A stretch of 64,000 nt of DNA, taken from the sequence record LC788711.1; one strand, given 5' to 3'. Positions 22,656 to 24,802 of the stretch are shown one piece after another. Position 1 is the first letter of the stretch, and every line of letters starts with the position of its first letter. Under the pieces are notes generated by a model. It was not told the DNA's origin. It worked only from the letters and a program-made list of their open reading frames with translations, and ran no database searches. The translations under genes were made by a program, and so were the position numbers. The DNA is from Escherichia coli phage NG_S8.

Positions 22656-22856
22656 ATGGCAATGACAATAACACTTCCAAAGATTCAAGCAAAACTTAAT
22701 TTGCTCTCCATAGCAAGAATCAATTACCAGGATAGTATCGGCACTCCAAACCAGAAAGCGTACAAAGATGCGTGGTTGAAAGAAGCTGCTGATTTAGCTG
22801 GTATGGCTGCTCAGTATAATAAAGAACTCAAAATGGAAATCGCAGACGATGAATAA
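22656..22856 (+). CDS. small hypothetical protein
   Basis: ATG at 22656 after the GAGAGGA RBS (the track start at 22638 lies inside the leader); 66 aa. Confidence 0.5.
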   Translation: MAMTITLPKIQAKLNLLSIARINYQDSIGTPNQKAYKDAWLKEAADLAGMAAQYNKELKMEIADDE

Positions 22857-23820
22857 TGTAAAAGACTTTATCAAACGTTGTCAAGAAGCGTACTACCAGG
22901 GAATGAGTCTTATTTCCGATGAAGAATATGATCGTCTGATTAAAAGATTCCCACTAGAGGAAGAAATCGGACCGAAAGGTGATATCCCTCATTTGTATCG
23001 TATGTATTCTTTACAGAAAGTCTATTACGATCGTGGTGATAAAGCTCCATTTAACCCATTAGGTCAGGTTGAAACTGATAAGTTAGATGGTTGTGCGATT
23101 TCTCTATTATATATTAATGGTGAATTTGTTCAAGCGTTAACTCGTGGTAACGGTATTCTAGGGAATGATGTAACGCATAATGTTAAAATGCTGAACATTC
23201 CCAAAACTATTTCCCAAAAAGTACCAACTCAAATCACTGGTGAAGTTCTCATTACTAAAGAAGTAGAGAACAAACGTAACTACGCTTCGGGTGCTATTAA
23301 CCTGAAAGATAGTGATGATTTCATGCAACGTATTGGTGAAGGTGGTTTAATCTTCGTTGCATATGGTATCCAGTGTTCAGCGGAAACAGTCGGTATTACA
23401 GAAGCCTATTTAAAAGATATGCTTTGGCTAGAGAATGAGAACTTCTTGACAGTTATTAATGTTCGTTCCTTCTTTAAATGGATTCCGACAGATGGTAAAG
23501 TTGTTCGCATTAACGACAACAATAAATTCTTCCGTGAAGGTTGGACTAATAAATTTCCTCGTGGTGCATTTGCTATTAAAGAGGATGAAGAAGGCGAAAT
23601 TACCACACTTGTTAAAGTTGAATGGCAAGTAGGGGCTTCTGGTAAAGTAACTCCAGTTGGTTATTTCGAACCGGTGATTATTGATGATGCCACAATCGTT
23701 AAAGCAACTCTTAATAACGTTGATTATATTAACGCTCTCGATTTAGAGATCGGTTGCCAGATTCGAGTGATTCGTGCTGGTGGTGTAATCCCTTGTATAG
23801 TAGAGCGAGTATACGACTAA
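22849..23820 (+). CDS. lig: NAD-dependent DNA ligase, N-terminal adenylation/OB part (separate polypeptide)
   Basis: KLDG adenylation lysine motif (TDKLDGCAISLLY), RGNG...DVT; 323 aa; the Zn-finger/HhH/BRCT part is encoded by the next gene. Confidence 0.9.
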   Translation: MNNVKDFIKRCQEAYYQGMSLISDEEYDRLIKRFPLEEEIGPKGDIPHLYRMYSLQKVYYDRGDKAPFNPLGQVETDKLDGCAISLLYINGEFVQALTRGNGILGNDVTHNVKMLNIPKTISQKVPTQITGEVLITKEVENKRNYASGAINLKDSDDFMQRIGEGGLIFVAYGIQCSAETVGITEAYLKDMLWLENENFLTVINVRSFFKWIPTDGKVVRINDNNKFFREGWTNKFPRGAFAIKEDEEGEITTLVKVEWQVGASGKVTPVGYFEPVIIDDATIVKATLNNVDYINALDLEIGCQIRVIRAGGVIPCIVERVYD

Positions 23821-23870
23821 TTCGTAACCCTTTGCTACCCGTTTACCATGTCGGAATTATAAAGTGGTTA

Positions 23871-23899
23871 TTGACATTTTCGCCGCTTAGGTATATACT
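23871..23899 (+). promoter_or_regulatory. sigma70 promoter in the ligase spacer
   Basis: TTGACA-17 bp-TATACT. Confidence 0.6.
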
Positions 23900-23963
23900 A
23901 TTATCATTCAGTTGAGGGATAGAAAGTTATGGCGAGGGTAAGCAAAGTTAGTTAAAATTGTAG

Positions 23964-23992
23964 TTGCTAAATGCTTAAATACTTGCTATAAT
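23964..23992 (+). promoter_or_regulatory. early sigma70 promoter with conserved leader
   Basis: TTGCTA-17 bp-TATAAT then ATTTATATAAATTGATAAGGAAGAAATTTG-ATG. Confidence 0.65.
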
Positions 23993-24022
23993 ATTTATAT
24001 AAATTGATAAGGAAGAAATTTG

Positions 24023-24802
24023 ATGAAAATCGAAATTCCAACACAATGTCCCTCTTGTGGTTCTAAGCTAGATCTTGTCAACGGGCAATTATTCTGTAGG
24101 AATAAGTCCAACTGTCCAGCGCAATCAAGTAAGTTAATCGAGAACTTCTGCACAAAAATGAAGTTAAAGGGCTTTGGCCCGAAAACTATTGAGAAGCTGG
24201 AGCTGACTAAGATCTCAGAACTGTTTTACCTGACCGAAGAAGATTTGGTCGGAGCTGTGGGTAGCAAGGTTGCCGCTAAATTGATTAGCGAGTTAAATAC
24301 TAAGGTTCGCGGAGACATTAACTTTGGTTCAGTTCTCGGTTCTTTAGGAATTCCTCTTATTGGAGAGGTTGCAGCAAAGAAACTGTCCCAAAATTGCACT
24401 AGCTTCCACGATGTGAAGGCTGACGGCAAGGCTGGAGAAAATTACAAAACCTGGCTAAATTCCCCACAAGGCAAGGATGTTATTGAATTACCGTGGAAAT
24501 TCTCAACGGGTATTCGAGGTGCTAAAGCGGATATCATCATTACAGATGATTTAGTTGCCCAGCCAAATGGAATCACGGTCTGTATTACCGGATCTTTGCA
24601 AGATTTTGCAAATCGAACGGATGCAACAAACTATTTAGAAAGTCTAGGATATACGGTTAAGAAGTCCGTTACCAAAGACGTCAAATACCTAATCTGTGAG
24701 GATGAATCAAAACGTTCTTCCTCATCTTATAAGAAAGCCGAAACGAATGGGATAGAAATCCTGTCGATTAAAGAACTATTGGAGAAAAATAATAATGTCT
24801 AA
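24023..24802 (+). CDS. lig: NAD-dependent DNA ligase, C-terminal Zn-finger/HhH/BRCT part (separate polypeptide)
   Basis: Cys4 finger CPSCGS...[20 protein letters not shown] helix-hairpin-helix, BRCT-like VCITGSL; 259 aa from the ATG at 24023. Confidence 0.85.
   Translation: [259 protein letters not shown]

What the first reader, a model, noticed from the sequence alone, without database searches (positions are those of the whole stretch)
22849..24802. NAD-dependent DNA ligase encoded as two separate genes, with two promoters and an 8-codon mini-ORF in the spacer
The adenylation/OB part (KLDG motif) ends at 23820. The Zn-finger/HhH/BRCT part starts at 24023. The 200 bp between them carries two promoters (23871-23899, 23964-23992) and a mini-ORF at 23929-23955 (MARVSKVS) with a good RBS. 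A split ligase is, as far as I recall, a T5 feature. The spacer could be the scar of a lost intron or homing endonuclease, and the mini-ORF could be a remnant or a leader peptide.
Basis: partly seen in the sequence, partly recalled or inferred. Interest (0 to 1): 0.45.

Follow-up and report, generated by a model that had tools for sequence, protein, structure and literature searches.

The report
T5-type two-subunit NAD-dependent DNA ligase
This is the well-known two-gene (ligA + ligB) NAD-dependent DNA ligase of T5-like phages, separated by the two classic T5 early promoters P-K28b and P-K28a; it is ordinary for this phage family, and the 8-codon mini-ORF is most likely incidental.

Summary
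The window is Salmonella phage fuchur, a T5-like phage (100% match).
- ligA, 22849-23820: domain Ia, adenylation and OB domains, KLDG motif.
- A 202-nt spacer.
- ligB, 24023-24802: Cys4 zinc finger, HhH, BRCT.
- Two sigma-70 promoters.
- An ATG mini-ORF, 23929-23955.

All of this is already known. [quoted passage not shown] PDB 9HU3 (released 2026-01-14) is the orthologous "PR1 phage heterodimeric DNA ligase" bound to nicked DNA.

The split is ancient. All 91 related loci I examined are split, down to about 40% identity, and each ligB has its own promoter.

In relatives, the site between the ligA stop and P-K28b holds variable cargo. Only two phages carry a GIY-YIG endonuclease there. This shows a permissive insertion site, not the origin of the split.

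The 157-nt promoter block is ultraconserved as a whole, so conservation says nothing specific about the mini-ORF. The mini-ORF's peptide is not conserved, its start codon is lost in several lineages, and comparable SD+ATG mini-ORFs arise in 16% of shuffled spacers.

Verdict: already known, low interest.

The parts
22598..22626 (+). Early promoter upstream of the small ORF and ligA (TTGCTT-17-TATAAT). It is the counterpart of T5 'putative early promoter T5P35' and carries the same downstream 'repeat b' sequence as P-K28a. Inferred +1 is about 22633.
   Evidence: Sequence read. T5 annotation. It follows the terminator-like hairpin at 22553-22581.
22656..22856 (+). Small ORF (66 aa from the ATG at 22656; listed from TTG 22638 as 72 aa) that overlaps the ligA start. 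It is absent from T5 and variable among relatives.
   Evidence: The T5 match starts only at query position 250. Alignment gap fraction is about 0.47 across this stretch. No Pfam hit.
22849..23820 (+). [quoted passage not shown]
   Evidence: ORF. (Pfam PF01653 84 bits, PF03120 77 bits). (PDB 9hu3_A, E=1.4e-106). (annotated as ligA / subunit A in fuchur and T5).
23821..23865 (+). Variable segment after the ligA stop. In relatives, accessory genes are inserted here, each overlapping the ligA stop.
   Evidence: Nucleotide diversity (pi) is 0.043 here against 0.002 in the rest of the spacer. Insertions seen at this site: GIY-YIG in SP3, a 64-aa ORF in smaug, NADAR in Stubb, DprA-like in Vibrio phages.
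23851..23925 (+). Promoter P-K28b (T5 nomenclature): -35 at 23871-23876, -10 at 23894-23899, inferred +1 at 23906, conserved '+7' TTGAGGGA at 23912-23919.
   Evidence: 11/12 match. (T5 annotation 'promoter P-K 28b', mapped with offset 21348). (identical in T5).
23929..23955 (+). 8-codon mini-ORF MARVSKVS. Its ATG is at +24 of the inferred P-K28b transcript. It is most likely an incidental or vestigial start of an orphan promoter-leader module.
   Evidence: start codon variable across lineages, peptides unrelated. (the mini-ORF substitutions seen are non-synonymous). (arises by chance in 16% of shuffles). Not annotated in any record inspected.
23944..24018 (+). Promoter P-K28a: -35 at 23964-23969, TG-extended -10 at 23987-23992, inferred +1 at 23999, and the ligB Shine-Dalgarno AGGA at 24010-24013.
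   Evidence: 10/12 plus TG. (T5 'promoter P-K 28a'). ('repeat b copy 5').
24023..24802 (+). ligB: NAD-dependent DNA ligase subunit B (Cys4 zinc finger, HhH, BRCT), 259 aa. An in-frame TTG at 24020 is used as the start in the T5 st0 record.
   Evidence: (9hu3_B, E=2.2e-79; 2owo residues 402-529). (AF2 model pLDDT 91.7; best PDB match 9hu3_B). (alternative start).
24795..25562 (+). D5 DNA-binding protein gene. Its ATG overlaps the ligB stop (ATGTCTAA), so it is probably co-transcribed from P-K28b/a and translationally coupled to ligB.
   Evidence: overlap. (annotated D5).
25580..25608 (+). Terminator-like hairpin (13-bp stem followed by a T run). It is the first terminator-like site downstream of the spacer promoters on the + strand.

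Best explanation
This is the T5-family two-subunit NAD+-dependent DNA ligase.

LigA (domain Ia, adenylyltransferase with Lys78 of KLDG, and OB fold) carries the catalytic core. LigB (zinc finger, HhH, BRCT) supplies the DNA-clamping half. The break falls in the variable linker between the OB fold and the zinc finger, with no sequence lost, and the two polypeptides assemble non-covalently on nicked DNA.

The 202-nt spacer is not a scar. It is a conserved tandem early-promoter cassette, T5 P-K28b and P-K28a, 93 nt apart. This cassette adds strong initiation for ligB and the overlapping downstream gene D5, up to the terminator at 25580-25608. These transcripts come on top of read-through from the promoter upstream of ligA, because no terminator follows ligA.

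The mini-ORF is the start codon of an 'orphan' promoter-leader module. T5 early promoters carry a stereotyped leader with a purine-rich '+7' TTGA(G)GGA element and a start codon at about +24. P-K28b has this module but no gene behind it.

Shown here: gene structure, domain content, identity to the T5 features, conservation pattern, and the existence of a solved heterodimer for an orthologue.

Inferred: transcription start sites, co-transcription of ligB and D5, assembly of the fuchur proteins themselves, and non-function of the mini-ORF.
For: Identity and annotation:
- The window is 100% identical to phage fuchur, which annotates ligase subunits A and B. 456 phage records match the region.
- T5 records name ligA/ligB and the promoters P-K 28b and P-K 28a at the homologous positions.

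Domains and structure:
- Domain content by Pfam.
- The junction aligns to the OB/zinc-finger linker of compact fused relatives. ligB aligns from residue 402 of E. coli LigA 2OWO, and ligA up to residue 390.
- PDB 9HU3/9I5I hold both chains. The entry is titled 'PR1 phage heterodimeric DNA ligase in complex with 21-mer nicked DNA containing phage nick sequence'. The chains are 55% and 54% identical to this LigA and LigB.

Age and spread of the split:
- All 91 related loci are split and none is fused.
- 99 of the 150 best representative clusters of LigB homologues are stand-alone proteins of about 250 aa.

Promoter architecture:
- A tandem promoter pair 93-97 nt apart (86 nt in one lineage) lies upstream of ligB in Tequintavirus, Epseptimavirus, Sugarlandvirus, Novosibvirus, Thalassavirus, Pogseptimavirus, and the Providencia and Pectobacterium phages examined.
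- Distant metagenomic relatives have a 65-137 nt spacer, nearly all with a single strong promoter.
- No terminator-like site lies in 23821-24022. The next one on the + strand is at 25580.
- A second tandem pair in the same window (32457 and 32557) corresponds to T5 P31A/P31B. Its upstream member is likewise an orphan module with an SD-like element.

Mini-ORF:
- Geometry: mini-ORF ATG at +24 of P-K28b, ligB ATG at +25 of P-K28a, and the ORF at 22656 at +24 of its own promoter.
- At the start-codon position: ATG in T5-like phages and PR1; TTG in KPN4, Stubb, PM135 and VspSw_1; ACG in PSTCR5; CTG in D314; nothing in Chloris and DU_PP_V. The peptides are unrelated.
Against: - Positions 23866-24022 are extraordinarily conserved. 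Nucleotide diversity (pi) is 0.002, against 0.16 and 0.09 at third codon positions and 0.011 and 0.010 at second positions of ligA and ligB. 423 of 603 records are at least 99% identical. This includes the mini-ORF, so a function for the inter-promoter segment beyond promoter activity cannot be excluded.
- A canonical start (ATG or TTG) sits at +23/+24 of the upstream promoter's transcript in about 6 of 10 lineages. That is more than a naive expectation, although these positions are homologous rather than independent.
- The P-K28b leader RNA folds better than shuffles (z = -4.05; z = -3.7).
- No transcript, ribosome or protein data for this phage were available.
- Promoter activity rests on the T5 annotation and on my recollection of Gentz & Bujard 1985 (J Bacteriol 164:70), which I could not open.
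Confidence: 0.87

Rival explanations
1. The mini-ORF is a translated leader ORF on the P-K28b transcript. The act of translation, not the peptide, would modulate the leader (for example by opening the predicted hairpin or protecting the 5' end) and so tune ligB/D5 expression from the upstream promoter.
For: - The SD-like GAGG lies 11 nt upstream and the ATG is at +24 of the transcript.
- A start codon (ATG or TTG) followed by a short ORF of 4-9 codons (24 codons in PM135) occurs at the same place in T5-like phages, PR1, KPN4, Stubb, PM135 and VspSw_1.
- The mini-ORF start is buried in a predicted leader hairpin that folds better than shuffles (z = -4.05).
- The segment is invariant across hundreds of genomes.
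Against: - The start is ACG in PSTCR5, a close relative of PR1; CTG in D314; and absent in Chloris and DU_PP_V.
- The peptides share nothing beyond M-x-R in three homologous cases.
- The mini-ORF substitutions seen within Markadamsvirinae are non-synonymous (AGT to AAT or ATT; AGC to GGC in SP3).
- The SD-like element is the conserved '+7' region of T5 early promoters. It is also present behind the orphan promoter P31A, which has no ATG.
- The hairpin is not conserved across genera (z from about 0 to -3).
- The ORF is within chance expectation.
- The stop codon lies 67 nt before the ligB start, so there is no direct translational coupling.
Confidence: 0.1
2. The split was created by a mobile element (a homing-endonuclease gene or an intron) that inserted into an ancestral single ligase gene and was later lost. 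The spacer is what remains.
For: - Compact fused relatives of 555-578 aa exist, in which the OB fold and zinc finger are joined by a short linker of variable length.
- A GIY-YIG gene (Pfam 26.1 bits, cut-off 22.6) sits exactly at the ligA stop in SP3 and one other Salmonella phage.
- Genes broken by homing endonucleases that still make a working enzyme are documented in T4-like phages: Aeh1 nrdA/mobE (PMC3045599) and the review PMC2988022.
Against: - No relative combines an unsplit ligase with close sequence similarity. All 91 loci are split, including those with only 65-137 nt between the halves and no ORF.
- The GIY-YIG gene is in 2 distinct phages out of about 450. Unrelated cargo occupies the same slot elsewhere: a 64-aa ORF, NADAR, DprA-like and others. 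This points to a permissive intergenic site.
- The spacer has no Rfam intron match and is almost fully accounted for by two promoter footprints.
- Fused forms are scattered in a rough NJ tree, so even the direction (fission or fusion) is unresolved.
Confidence: 0.15
3. The ultraconserved block at about 23863-24082 has a cis-acting role beyond promoter function. Examples would be an operator for a phage regulator such as D5, an RNA processing site, or a structured leader. That role would explain why the block is more conserved than second codon positions.
For: - pi is 0.002-0.007 over about 220 nt, including the first 60 nt of ligB. This is the longest such block in 5.7 kb.
- Leader fold z = -4.05.
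- In several genera an inverted repeat has its 3' arm on or next to the -35 of the downstream promoter: a 10-bp stem in PM135 and 9-bp stems in Stubb and Chloris.
- The spacing between the two promoters is conserved.
Against: - The inverted repeat is weak or absent in T5-like phages (6 bp, p=0.44) and in close relatives of Chloris (L048, L050).
- No common consensus structure exists.
- The P31A/P31B cassette shows the same high conservation between T5 and fuchur. The pattern may simply reflect multi-part constraints on very strong promoters (UP element, -35, -10, discriminator, +7 region).
- Other ultraconserved blocks lie inside coding sequence nearby. That suggests mosaic recombination or selective sweeps rather than a special element here.
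Confidence: 0.15
4. The split is an assembly or sequencing artefact, or a pseudogenised single ligase gene.
For: None found.
Against: - The same two-ORF structure, with an identical spacer, is present in more than 400 independently sequenced genomes.
- Both halves evolve under purifying selection: pi at second codon positions is 0.010-0.011 against 0.09-0.16 at third positions.
- The orthologous heterodimer has been solved.
Confidence: 0.01

Closest known systems
Bacteriophage T5 ligA/ligB (T5.116/T5.117; AAU05253/AAU05254) with promoters P-K28b and P-K28a
   Same: - Same gene order: D3 ... ligA, spacer, ligB, D5, D6.
- LigA is 95% and LigB 96% identical.
- The spacer is 202 nt in both, and its 157-nt promoter block is 100% identical to the T5 st0 record.
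   Different: fuchur has an extra small ORF (22656-22856) between the upstream promoter and ligA. A few substitutions lie in the 45 nt after the ligA stop.
Providencia phage PR1 heterodimeric NAD+-dependent DNA ligase (PDB 9HU3, 9I5I)
   Same: - Orthologous two-chain enzyme, broken at the same OB/zinc-finger point.
- Same synteny and the same tandem promoters upstream of ligB.
   Different: - About 55% and 54% protein identity.
- Its inter-promoter mini-ORF encodes an unrelated peptide (MADKPDGNE). The start codon is lost in the sister phage PSTCR5.
Bacterial single-chain LigA (E. coli LigA, PDB 2OWO)
   Same: Same domain order: Ia, NTase, OB, zinc finger, HhH, BRCT. KxDG nucleotidyl-transfer motif. 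Cys4 zinc finger.
   Different: - One 671-aa polypeptide, against 323 + 259 aa in two genes.
- The phage enzyme is more compact; the Pfam adenylation-domain match covers only part of the profile.
Compact fused NAD-ligases of 555-578 aa from metagenomes (e.g. P0033, P0055, P0105)
   Same: Same compact size (about 320 + 250 aa) and 36-41% identity over the whole length. The junction aligns residue for residue.
   Different: OB fold and zinc finger are covalently joined by a short linker of variable length. Their genomic context was not examined.
Genes in pieces caused by homing endonucleases in T4-like phages (Aeh1 nrdA-a / mobE / nrdA-b; PMC3045599, PMC2988022)
   Same: An essential replication enzyme is encoded as two adjacent genes whose products reassemble. 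A GIY-YIG gene occupies the junction in rare relatives (SP3).
   Different: - This window has no endonuclease.
- The split is fixed family-wide.
- No mobile-element-derived interaction peptides are evident at the new termini when compared with fused forms.
T5 tandem early promoters P31A/P31B
   Same: Two strong sigma-70 promoters about 100 nt apart. The upstream one is followed by an SD-like leader but no gene. The cassette is highly conserved between T5 and fuchur.
   Different: It lies between D10 and the gene preceding D11, not inside a split gene. There is no ATG at +24 of the upstream member.

Membership tests
NAD+-dependent DNA ligase (LigA family, EC 6.5.1.2) | Nucleotidyltransferase (adenylation) domain with the KxDG lysine | tested here: met
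   Pfam PF01653, 84.2 bits (cut-off 27). KLDG at LigA residues 78-81.
NAD+-dependent DNA ligase (LigA family, EC 6.5.1.2) | N-terminal domain Ia (NMN-binding; YY...SD.EYD signature), which distinguishes NAD+- from ATP-dependent ligases | tested here: met
   'AYYQGMSLISDEEYDRL' at residues 14-30. It aligns with the same motif in 9hu3_A and the fused relatives. The assignment of the signature rests on my knowledge of E. coli LigA.
NAD+-dependent DNA ligase (LigA family, EC 6.5.1.2) | OB-fold domain after the NTase domain | tested here: met
   PF03120, 77.1 bits (cut-off 32.9), residues 252-321. Aligns to 2OWO residues 284-390.
NAD+-dependent DNA ligase (LigA family, EC 6.5.1.2) | Cys4 zinc finger followed by HhH repeats | tested here: met
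   C9, C12, C25 and C31 are invariant in 18- and 70-sequence alignments. phmmer aligns LigB 3-122 to 2OWO 402-529, E=7e-12. Pfam HHH_2 alone is below its cut-off (21.6 against 27).
NAD+-dependent DNA ligase (LigA family, EC 6.5.1.2) | C-terminal BRCT domain | tested here: met
   PF00533, 35.6 bits (cut-off 21.3). The AF2 model has a confident alpha/beta domain at residues 185-258, and BRCT domains appear among the fold matches.
NAD+-dependent DNA ligase (LigA family, EC 6.5.1.2) | All domains on one polypeptide | tested here: not met
   A stop at 23818-23820, a 202-nt spacer and a new start at 24023. This is what defines the T5-type two-subunit variant.
NAD+-dependent DNA ligase (LigA family, EC 6.5.1.2) | NAD+-dependent nick sealing | not testable with these tools
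   Supported only by homology to PDB 9HU3, a heterodimer bound to nicked DNA.
T5-type two-subunit ligase (LigA + LigB of Demerecviridae) | Two adjacent co-oriented genes, broken between the OB fold and the zinc finger | tested here: met
   The junction aligns with that of T5, PR1 and all 91 loci.
T5-type two-subunit ligase (LigA + LigB of Demerecviridae) | Synteny: ligA, ligB, D5, D6 helicase within the early replication cluster | tested here: met
   Window ORFs compared with the T5 annotation, and with KPN4, Stubb, Chloris, VspSw_1 and D314.
T5-type two-subunit ligase (LigA + LigB of Demerecviridae) | The two polypeptides form a heterodimer on nicked DNA | not testable with these tools
   Shown for the PR1 orthologue (9HU3), not for the fuchur proteins.
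T5 early promoters P-K28b / P-K28a | Sequence identity with the annotated T5 promoter intervals | tested here: met
   The 157-nt query is 100% identical to T5 st0 (AY692264), where the promoters are annotated. The alignment agrees.
T5 early promoters P-K28b / P-K28a | Sigma-70 -35/-10 hexamers with 17-nt spacing | tested here: met
   11/12, and 10/12 with TG.
T5 early promoters P-K28b / P-K28a | Initiation by E. coli or Salmonella RNA polymerase in vivo or in vitro | not testable with these tools
   Rests on the names in the T5 records and on my recollection of Gentz & Bujard 1985, which is not held in the library.
Gene split by a homing endonuclease or intron (genes in pieces) | A mobile-element ORF or ribozyme between the two halves | tested here: not met
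   The spacer contains no ORF longer than the mini-ORF that lies wholly within it, and no Rfam family matches. The feature is met only in SP3 and one relative.
Gene split by a homing endonuclease or intron (genes in pieces) | Close relatives that lack the element have an intact gene | tested here: not met
   0 of 91 loci are fused. The fused forms found are only 36-41% identical.
Regulatory leader peptide / upstream ORF | Start codon and reading frame conserved across relatives | tested here: not met
   The start is ATG, TTG, ACG, CTG or absent, depending on the lineage. ORF lengths are 4-24 codons and the peptides are unrelated.
Regulatory leader peptide / upstream ORF | Evidence of translation | not testable with these tools
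   No ribosome-profiling data were available.

The most novel reading that the evidence does not exclude
The ultraconserved block of about 220 nt (23863-24082) may be more than two promoters. The upstream promoter's leader carries an SD-like element, a short ORF at +24 and a hairpin that reaches the downstream promoter's -35 region. Together these could form a conserved post-transcriptional or operator-type control module. It would set the LigB : D5 : LigA ratio or the timing of early-gene shut-off. That role would explain why every Demerecviridae genus keeps two promoters 93-97 nt apart inside a split ligase gene.
Probability: 0.12. Interest if true: 0.4.

Novelty: already known. Interest (0 to 1): 0.12.

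Why it matters
T5-like phages package DNA that carries site-specific nicks, and they bring their own NAD+-dependent ligase. That this ligase comes in two pieces is a long-annotated curiosity, and it now has a solved structure (PR1, PDB 9HU3). So the finding adds nothing new about the enzyme.

The comparative work here adds modest points:
- The split is fixed across a very large and diverse group of phages, including uncultured ones.
- ligB always carries its own promoter.
- The tandem promoter cassette is among the most conserved DNA in these genomes.
- The ligA/ligB junction is a recurrent landing site for accessory genes (GIY-YIG endonuclease, NADAR, DprA-like).

These points are useful for annotation. 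For example, SP3 mislabels the endonuclease as ligase subunit A. They are not surprising to a specialist.

Tried and rejected
1. Group I/II intron, riboswitch or sRNA in the spacer. Rfam with permissive thresholds on 23700-24200 found nothing.

2. Conserved leader RNA structure.
- The fuchur/T5 leader folds well (z = -4.05; -3.7).
- The homologous leaders of eight other lineages give z from about 0 to -3 with no shared architecture.
- A test for an inverted repeat pairing with the -35 of the downstream promoter was significant only in Proteus phages (Stubb, PM135) and some Vibrio phages (Chloris, L049). It was absent in their close relatives. The combined p value is inflated by relatedness.
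- Rejected as a family-wide feature.

3. Antisense promoter on the minus strand, suggested by a TTGCTT-like hexamer. No acceptable -10 was found by eye, and the scan lists none in the inter-promoter region.

4. 'Hypothetical protein' annotated in the spacer of some records (PMBT26, vB_SenS-3). It is a 40-aa call that overlaps the ligA 3' end and P-K28b, not the mini-ORF, and is very likely spurious.

5. My initial recollection that the downstream promoter might be T5 P-H207. The T5 records name it P-K28a. The resemblance reflects the shared early-promoter downstream repeat ('repeat b').

6. Literature. Gentz & Bujard 1985 is not held. No paper for PDB 9HU3 was found. One search was wasted on an over-broad term.

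7. Polarity of fission versus fusion. An NJ tree of 124 LigB-like sequences placed compact fused forms both basally and nested among split forms. That is too rough to decide.

It was redone with representative-search proteins.

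
Full report
**Identity of the window**

Positions 22600-25000 are 100% identical to Salmonella phage fuchur (MT074458 / NC_048869). fuchur is a T5-like phage of the Demerecviridae. 456 phage records match the region, 428 of them over at least 80% of its length. [quoted passage not shown]

**Checking the observation**

The ORF list gives 22849-23820 (323 aa) and 24020/24023-24802 (260 or 259 aa). A 202-nt gap lies between them.

- Pfam assigns the NAD-ligase adenylation domain (84 bits) and OB domain (77 bits) to the first ORF.
- Pfam assigns BRCT (35.6 bits), plus a sub-threshold HhH hit, to the second ORF.
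- KLDG is at residues 78-81 of the first protein.
- The second protein starts [34 protein letters not shown]. Its four cysteines are invariant in alignments of 18 and 70 homologues.
- An AlphaFold2 model of LigB is confident (pLDDT 91.7). It shows a small beta zinc-finger unit, a helical HhH region, a disordered linker at 167-177 and an alpha/beta C-terminal domain.

The promoter scan finds TTGACA-17-TATACT at 23871-23899 and TTGCTA-17-TATAAT (with TG) at 23964-23992. The overall number of promoter-like hits in the 4-kb region is exactly what shuffles give, so the scan by itself is not evidence.

The mini-ORF ATG GCG AGG GTA AGC AAA GTT AGT TAA is at 23929-23955. GAGG lies 11 nt upstream.

**What is already known**

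The T5 reference records annotate the same arrangement.

- NC_005859 has ligA (T5.116) and ligB (T5.117), with two 75-nt regulatory features between them named 'promoter P-K 28b' and 'promoter P-K 28a'.
- AY587007 calls them T5P36 and T5P37 and marks a 'repeat b' in the second.
- Mapping these intervals onto the window (offset 21348) gives P-K28b = 23851-23925 and P-K28a = 23944-24018.
- If the 75-nt features span -55 to +20, the start sites are 23906 and 23999. That agrees with the usual 7-nt distance from the -10 hexamer. This is an inference, not a measurement.
- Published papers refer to the two subunits as a matter of course (PMC3632103, PMC4319617).

The Protein Data Bank holds the orthologous enzyme.

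- LigA matches 9hu3_A ('DNA ligase (NAD(+))', 339 aa, E = 1.4e-106).
- LigB matches 9hu3_B ('DNA ligase subunit B', 248 aa, E = 2.2e-79).
- The entry is titled 'PR1 phage heterodimeric DNA ligase in complex with 21-mer nicked DNA containing phage nick sequence' and was released 2026-01-14.
- The chain B sequence is 100% identical to Providencia phages vB_PreS_PR1 and PSTCR5.

That has in effect been done for an orthologue that is 55% and 54% identical.

**Where the break is**

LigA aligns to E. coli LigA (2OWO) up to residue 390, and LigB aligns from residue 402. An exhaustive search with LigB returned 3923 homologues.

- Of the 150 best representatives, 99 are stand-alone proteins of 225-275 aa.
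- 24 are longer than 500 aa, and 11 of those are compact forms of 511-578 aa.

I aligned six compact fused forms with LigA+LigB joined end to end. They are 36-41% identical over the whole length. The T5-type break lies in the short, variable-length linker between '...AGxxIPxV...' (end of the OB fold) and '...IxxPxxCPxCG' (zinc finger). No sequence is missing at the break, and no extra peptide has been added.

**How old and how general the split is**

I collected 95 loci from isolate genomes and IMG/VR contigs. In all 91 usable ones, ligA and ligB are separate ORFs. None is fused. The same holds in Sugarlandvirus, Novosibvirus, Thalassavirus, Pogseptimavirus, Providencia and Pectobacterium phages, and in uncultured relatives at about 40% identity.

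- In the distant relatives the gap is only 65-137 nt and holds a single strong sigma-70-type promoter. Its -35 lies mostly 50-70 nt before ligB.
- In the isolate genera there are two promoters, 93-97 nt apart (86 nt in one lineage). The downstream -35 is at about -52 to -60 and the upstream one at -145 to -156 relative to the ligB start.

A private promoter for ligB is therefore as old as the split. The tandem arrangement is a later feature that is nonetheless conserved across the family.

**What the promoters probably serve**

- No terminator-like site follows ligA.
- The promoter for ligA lies at 22598-26, after the terminator at 22553-81.
- The first terminator-like hairpin downstream of the spacer on the + strand is at 25580-25608, just after D5.
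- The D5 start codon overlaps the ligB stop (ATGTCTAA).

I infer that P-K28b and P-K28a drive a ligB-D5 unit on top of read-through from ligA. The T5 record describes D5 as a DNA-binding protein required for replication and late transcription. High demand for D5 would justify two strong promoters here, but I did not test this.

**Conservation**

I compared 20 colinear Markadamsvirinae loci.

| Region | Nucleotide diversity |
|---|---|
| ligA third codon positions | 0.16 |
| ligB third codon positions | 0.09 |
| Second codon positions (ligA / ligB) | 0.011 / 0.010 |
| 45 nt after the ligA stop | 0.043 |
| 23866-24022 | 0.002 |

- A sliding window over 28 loci shows that the invariant block runs from about 23863 to 24082. 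It is the longest such block in 5.7 kb.
- Of 603 records matching the 157-nt block, 423 are at least 99% identical. Only 46 of 456 records reach that level over the 2.4-kb region.

The mini-ORF is therefore invariant, but so is everything around it. Conservation within this subfamily cannot single the mini-ORF out.

**The mini-ORF**

Several lines argue against a specific function.

1. Chance. 16% of shuffled spacers contain an SD+ATG ORF that ends inside the spacer. The window holds 40 such ORFs of 2-15 codons.
2. Geometry.
   - The mini-ORF ATG is at +24 of the inferred P-K28b transcript.
   - The ligB ATG is at +25 of the P-K28a transcript.
   - The small ORF at 22656 starts at +24 of its promoter.
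   - The 'RBS' GAGGGA belongs to the TTGA-purine motif that follows T5 early promoters at about +7. The motif recurs behind other promoters in the window.
   - P-K28b thus looks like a complete promoter-leader-start module with no gene behind it.
3. A parallel case. The window contains a second tandem pair, at 32457 and 32557, which corresponds to T5 P31A/P31B. Its upstream member likewise has an SD-like leader and no gene, and it has no ATG at +24.
4. Other lineages. At the homologous position the codon is ATG in T5-like phages and PR1; TTG in KPN4, Stubb, PM135 and VspSw_1; ACG in PSTCR5 (the sister of PR1); CTG in D314; and absent in Chloris and DU_PP_V. ORF lengths range from 4 to 24 codons, and the peptides are unrelated (MARVSKVS, MADKPDGNE, MVRD, MSRRLAS, MIKEVWA).
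5. Substitutions. The few substitutions within the mini-ORF in Markadamsvirinae are all non-synonymous.
6. Annotation. No inspected record annotates it. The 'hypothetical protein' that some records place in the spacer is a different 40-aa call, which overlaps the ligA end.

One point counts the other way. A canonical start at +23/+24 in about six of ten lineages is more than I would expect from unrelated sequences. I leave about 10% for a translated leader ORF whose peptide sequence does not matter.

**The scar hypothesis**

In Salmonella phage SP3 a 213-aa ORF with a GIY-YIG domain (26.1 bits, cut-off 22.6) starts at the ligA stop and ends just before P-K28b. The record mislabels it 'ligase subunit A' and calls the real ligA 'hypothetical protein'. 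tblastn finds this gene in only one other phage.

Other cargo occupies the same slot in other phages:

- a 64-aa ORF in smaug and five other phages;
- a NADAR-domain protein in Proteus phage Stubb (110 bits);
- a DprA-like protein plus small ORFs in Vibrio phages;
- a crAss001_48-like protein in VspSw_1;
- a 334-aa ORF with a CxxxCxxC motif in a metagenomic contig.

The junction is therefore a permissive insertion point immediately after the ligA stop. The endonuclease is one sporadic visitor among several. Every relative is already split, including those with a 65-nt gap, so these insertions do not explain how the split arose. Rfam finds no intron or other RNA family in the spacer. Fission caused by a mobile element remains possible, as in the Aeh1 nrdA/mobE case (PMC3045599, PMC2988022), but it is untestable with the present data. 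A rough NJ tree does not even resolve whether the fused compact forms are ancestral or re-fused.

**RNA structure**

The P-K28b leader (23906-24050) folds to -32 kcal/mol with z = -4.05, pairing the mini-ORF start with the P-K28a -10 region. The homologous leaders of other genera give z between about 0 and -3 and different structures.

An inverted repeat whose 3' arm lies on or beside the downstream -35 is striking in Stubb and PM135 (9-10 bp) and in Chloris (9 bp). It is only 6 bp in T5-like phages (p = 0.44) and is degraded in close relatives of Chloris. I record this as unexplained and do not build on it.

**Conclusion**

The finding is an accurate description of a known feature: the T5-type heterodimeric NAD+-dependent ligase, with the tandem early promoters P-K28b and P-K28a in the intergenic spacer. 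The mini-ORF is most simply the vestigial start of an orphan promoter-leader module. The homing-endonuclease idea is a reasonable thought that the comparative data neither require nor support.

Novelty: already known. Interest: low.

Noticed in passing
window 32457-32586: A second tandem early-promoter pair: TTGGCA-17-TATAAT at 32457 and TTGTCA-18-TATAAT at 32557, 100 nt apart. It corresponds to T5 P31A/P31B. The upstream promoter has an SD-like leader, a small hairpin (TTCGGA...TCCGAA) and no gene. The cassette is almost invariant between T5 and fuchur.
   Followed up: partly
window 23863-24082; also 24723-24862, 25463-25562, 25703-25800, 26203-26262: Blocks with nucleotide diversity of about 0-0.007 among 28 T5-like genomes, against 0.03-0.2 in their surroundings. 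Several lie inside coding sequence (ligB 5' end, ligB/D5 overlap, D5 3' end, D6), so synonymous sites are frozen too. The cause is not established. Candidates are overlapping signals, recombination, selective sweeps or endonuclease target sites.
   Followed up: partly
L003 (Salmonella phage SP3, MG387042) 1238-2843: Annotation error. [quoted passage not shown] D5 is labelled 'portal vertex protein'.
   Followed up: yes
L006 (Proteus phage Stubb) 1692-2309: A NADAR-domain protein (Pfam 110 bits) is encoded between ligA and ligB. It is an NAD/ADP-ribose-related accessory gene sitting inside the NAD-dependent ligase locus. Its function here is unknown.
   Followed up: no
L007, L048-L051 (Vibrio phages) between ligA and ligB; L054 564-1568: DprA-like proteins (PHROG 768) occupy the ligA/ligB gap in Vibrio phages. 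One metagenomic contig carries a 334-aa ORF with a CxxxCxxC motif (possibly radical SAM; not checked against Pfam).
   Followed up: partly
window 22656-22856: A small ORF (66 aa from ATG) lies between the upstream early promoter and ligA and overlaps the ligA start. It is absent from T5, present in about half of the relatives, highly variable, and has no Pfam match.
   Followed up: partly
window 23906-24050: The predicted P-K28b leader RNA forms a long imperfect hairpin (-32 kcal/mol, z = -4.05). The hairpin pairs the mini-ORF start with the transcribed copy of the P-K28a -10 region. It is not conserved as a structure in other genera.
   Followed up: yes
phage records MG065642 / MG065692 (Campylobacter phages A148, C13); OR848168 / OR848739 (Listeria phage LM 4-14-1); OR845001 (Staphylococcus phage SA 1306 Kay): The Campylobacter- and Listeria-labelled records carry T5-like ligase-region sequence at 95-100% identity to enterobacterial T5-like phages. 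They probably reflect contamination or mislabelled hosts. The Staphylococcus-labelled record showed only a distant (28.7%) LigB match and a separate Listeria-labelled contig only 25.6%, so those are less clear.
   Followed up: no
window 24020-24025: The ligB start is annotated differently between records. The TTG at 24020 is used in T5 st0 (AY692264), and the ATG at 24023 in most others. The SD (AGGA, 24010-24013) is 6 nt from the TTG and 9 nt from the ATG, so either is plausible.
   Followed up: partly
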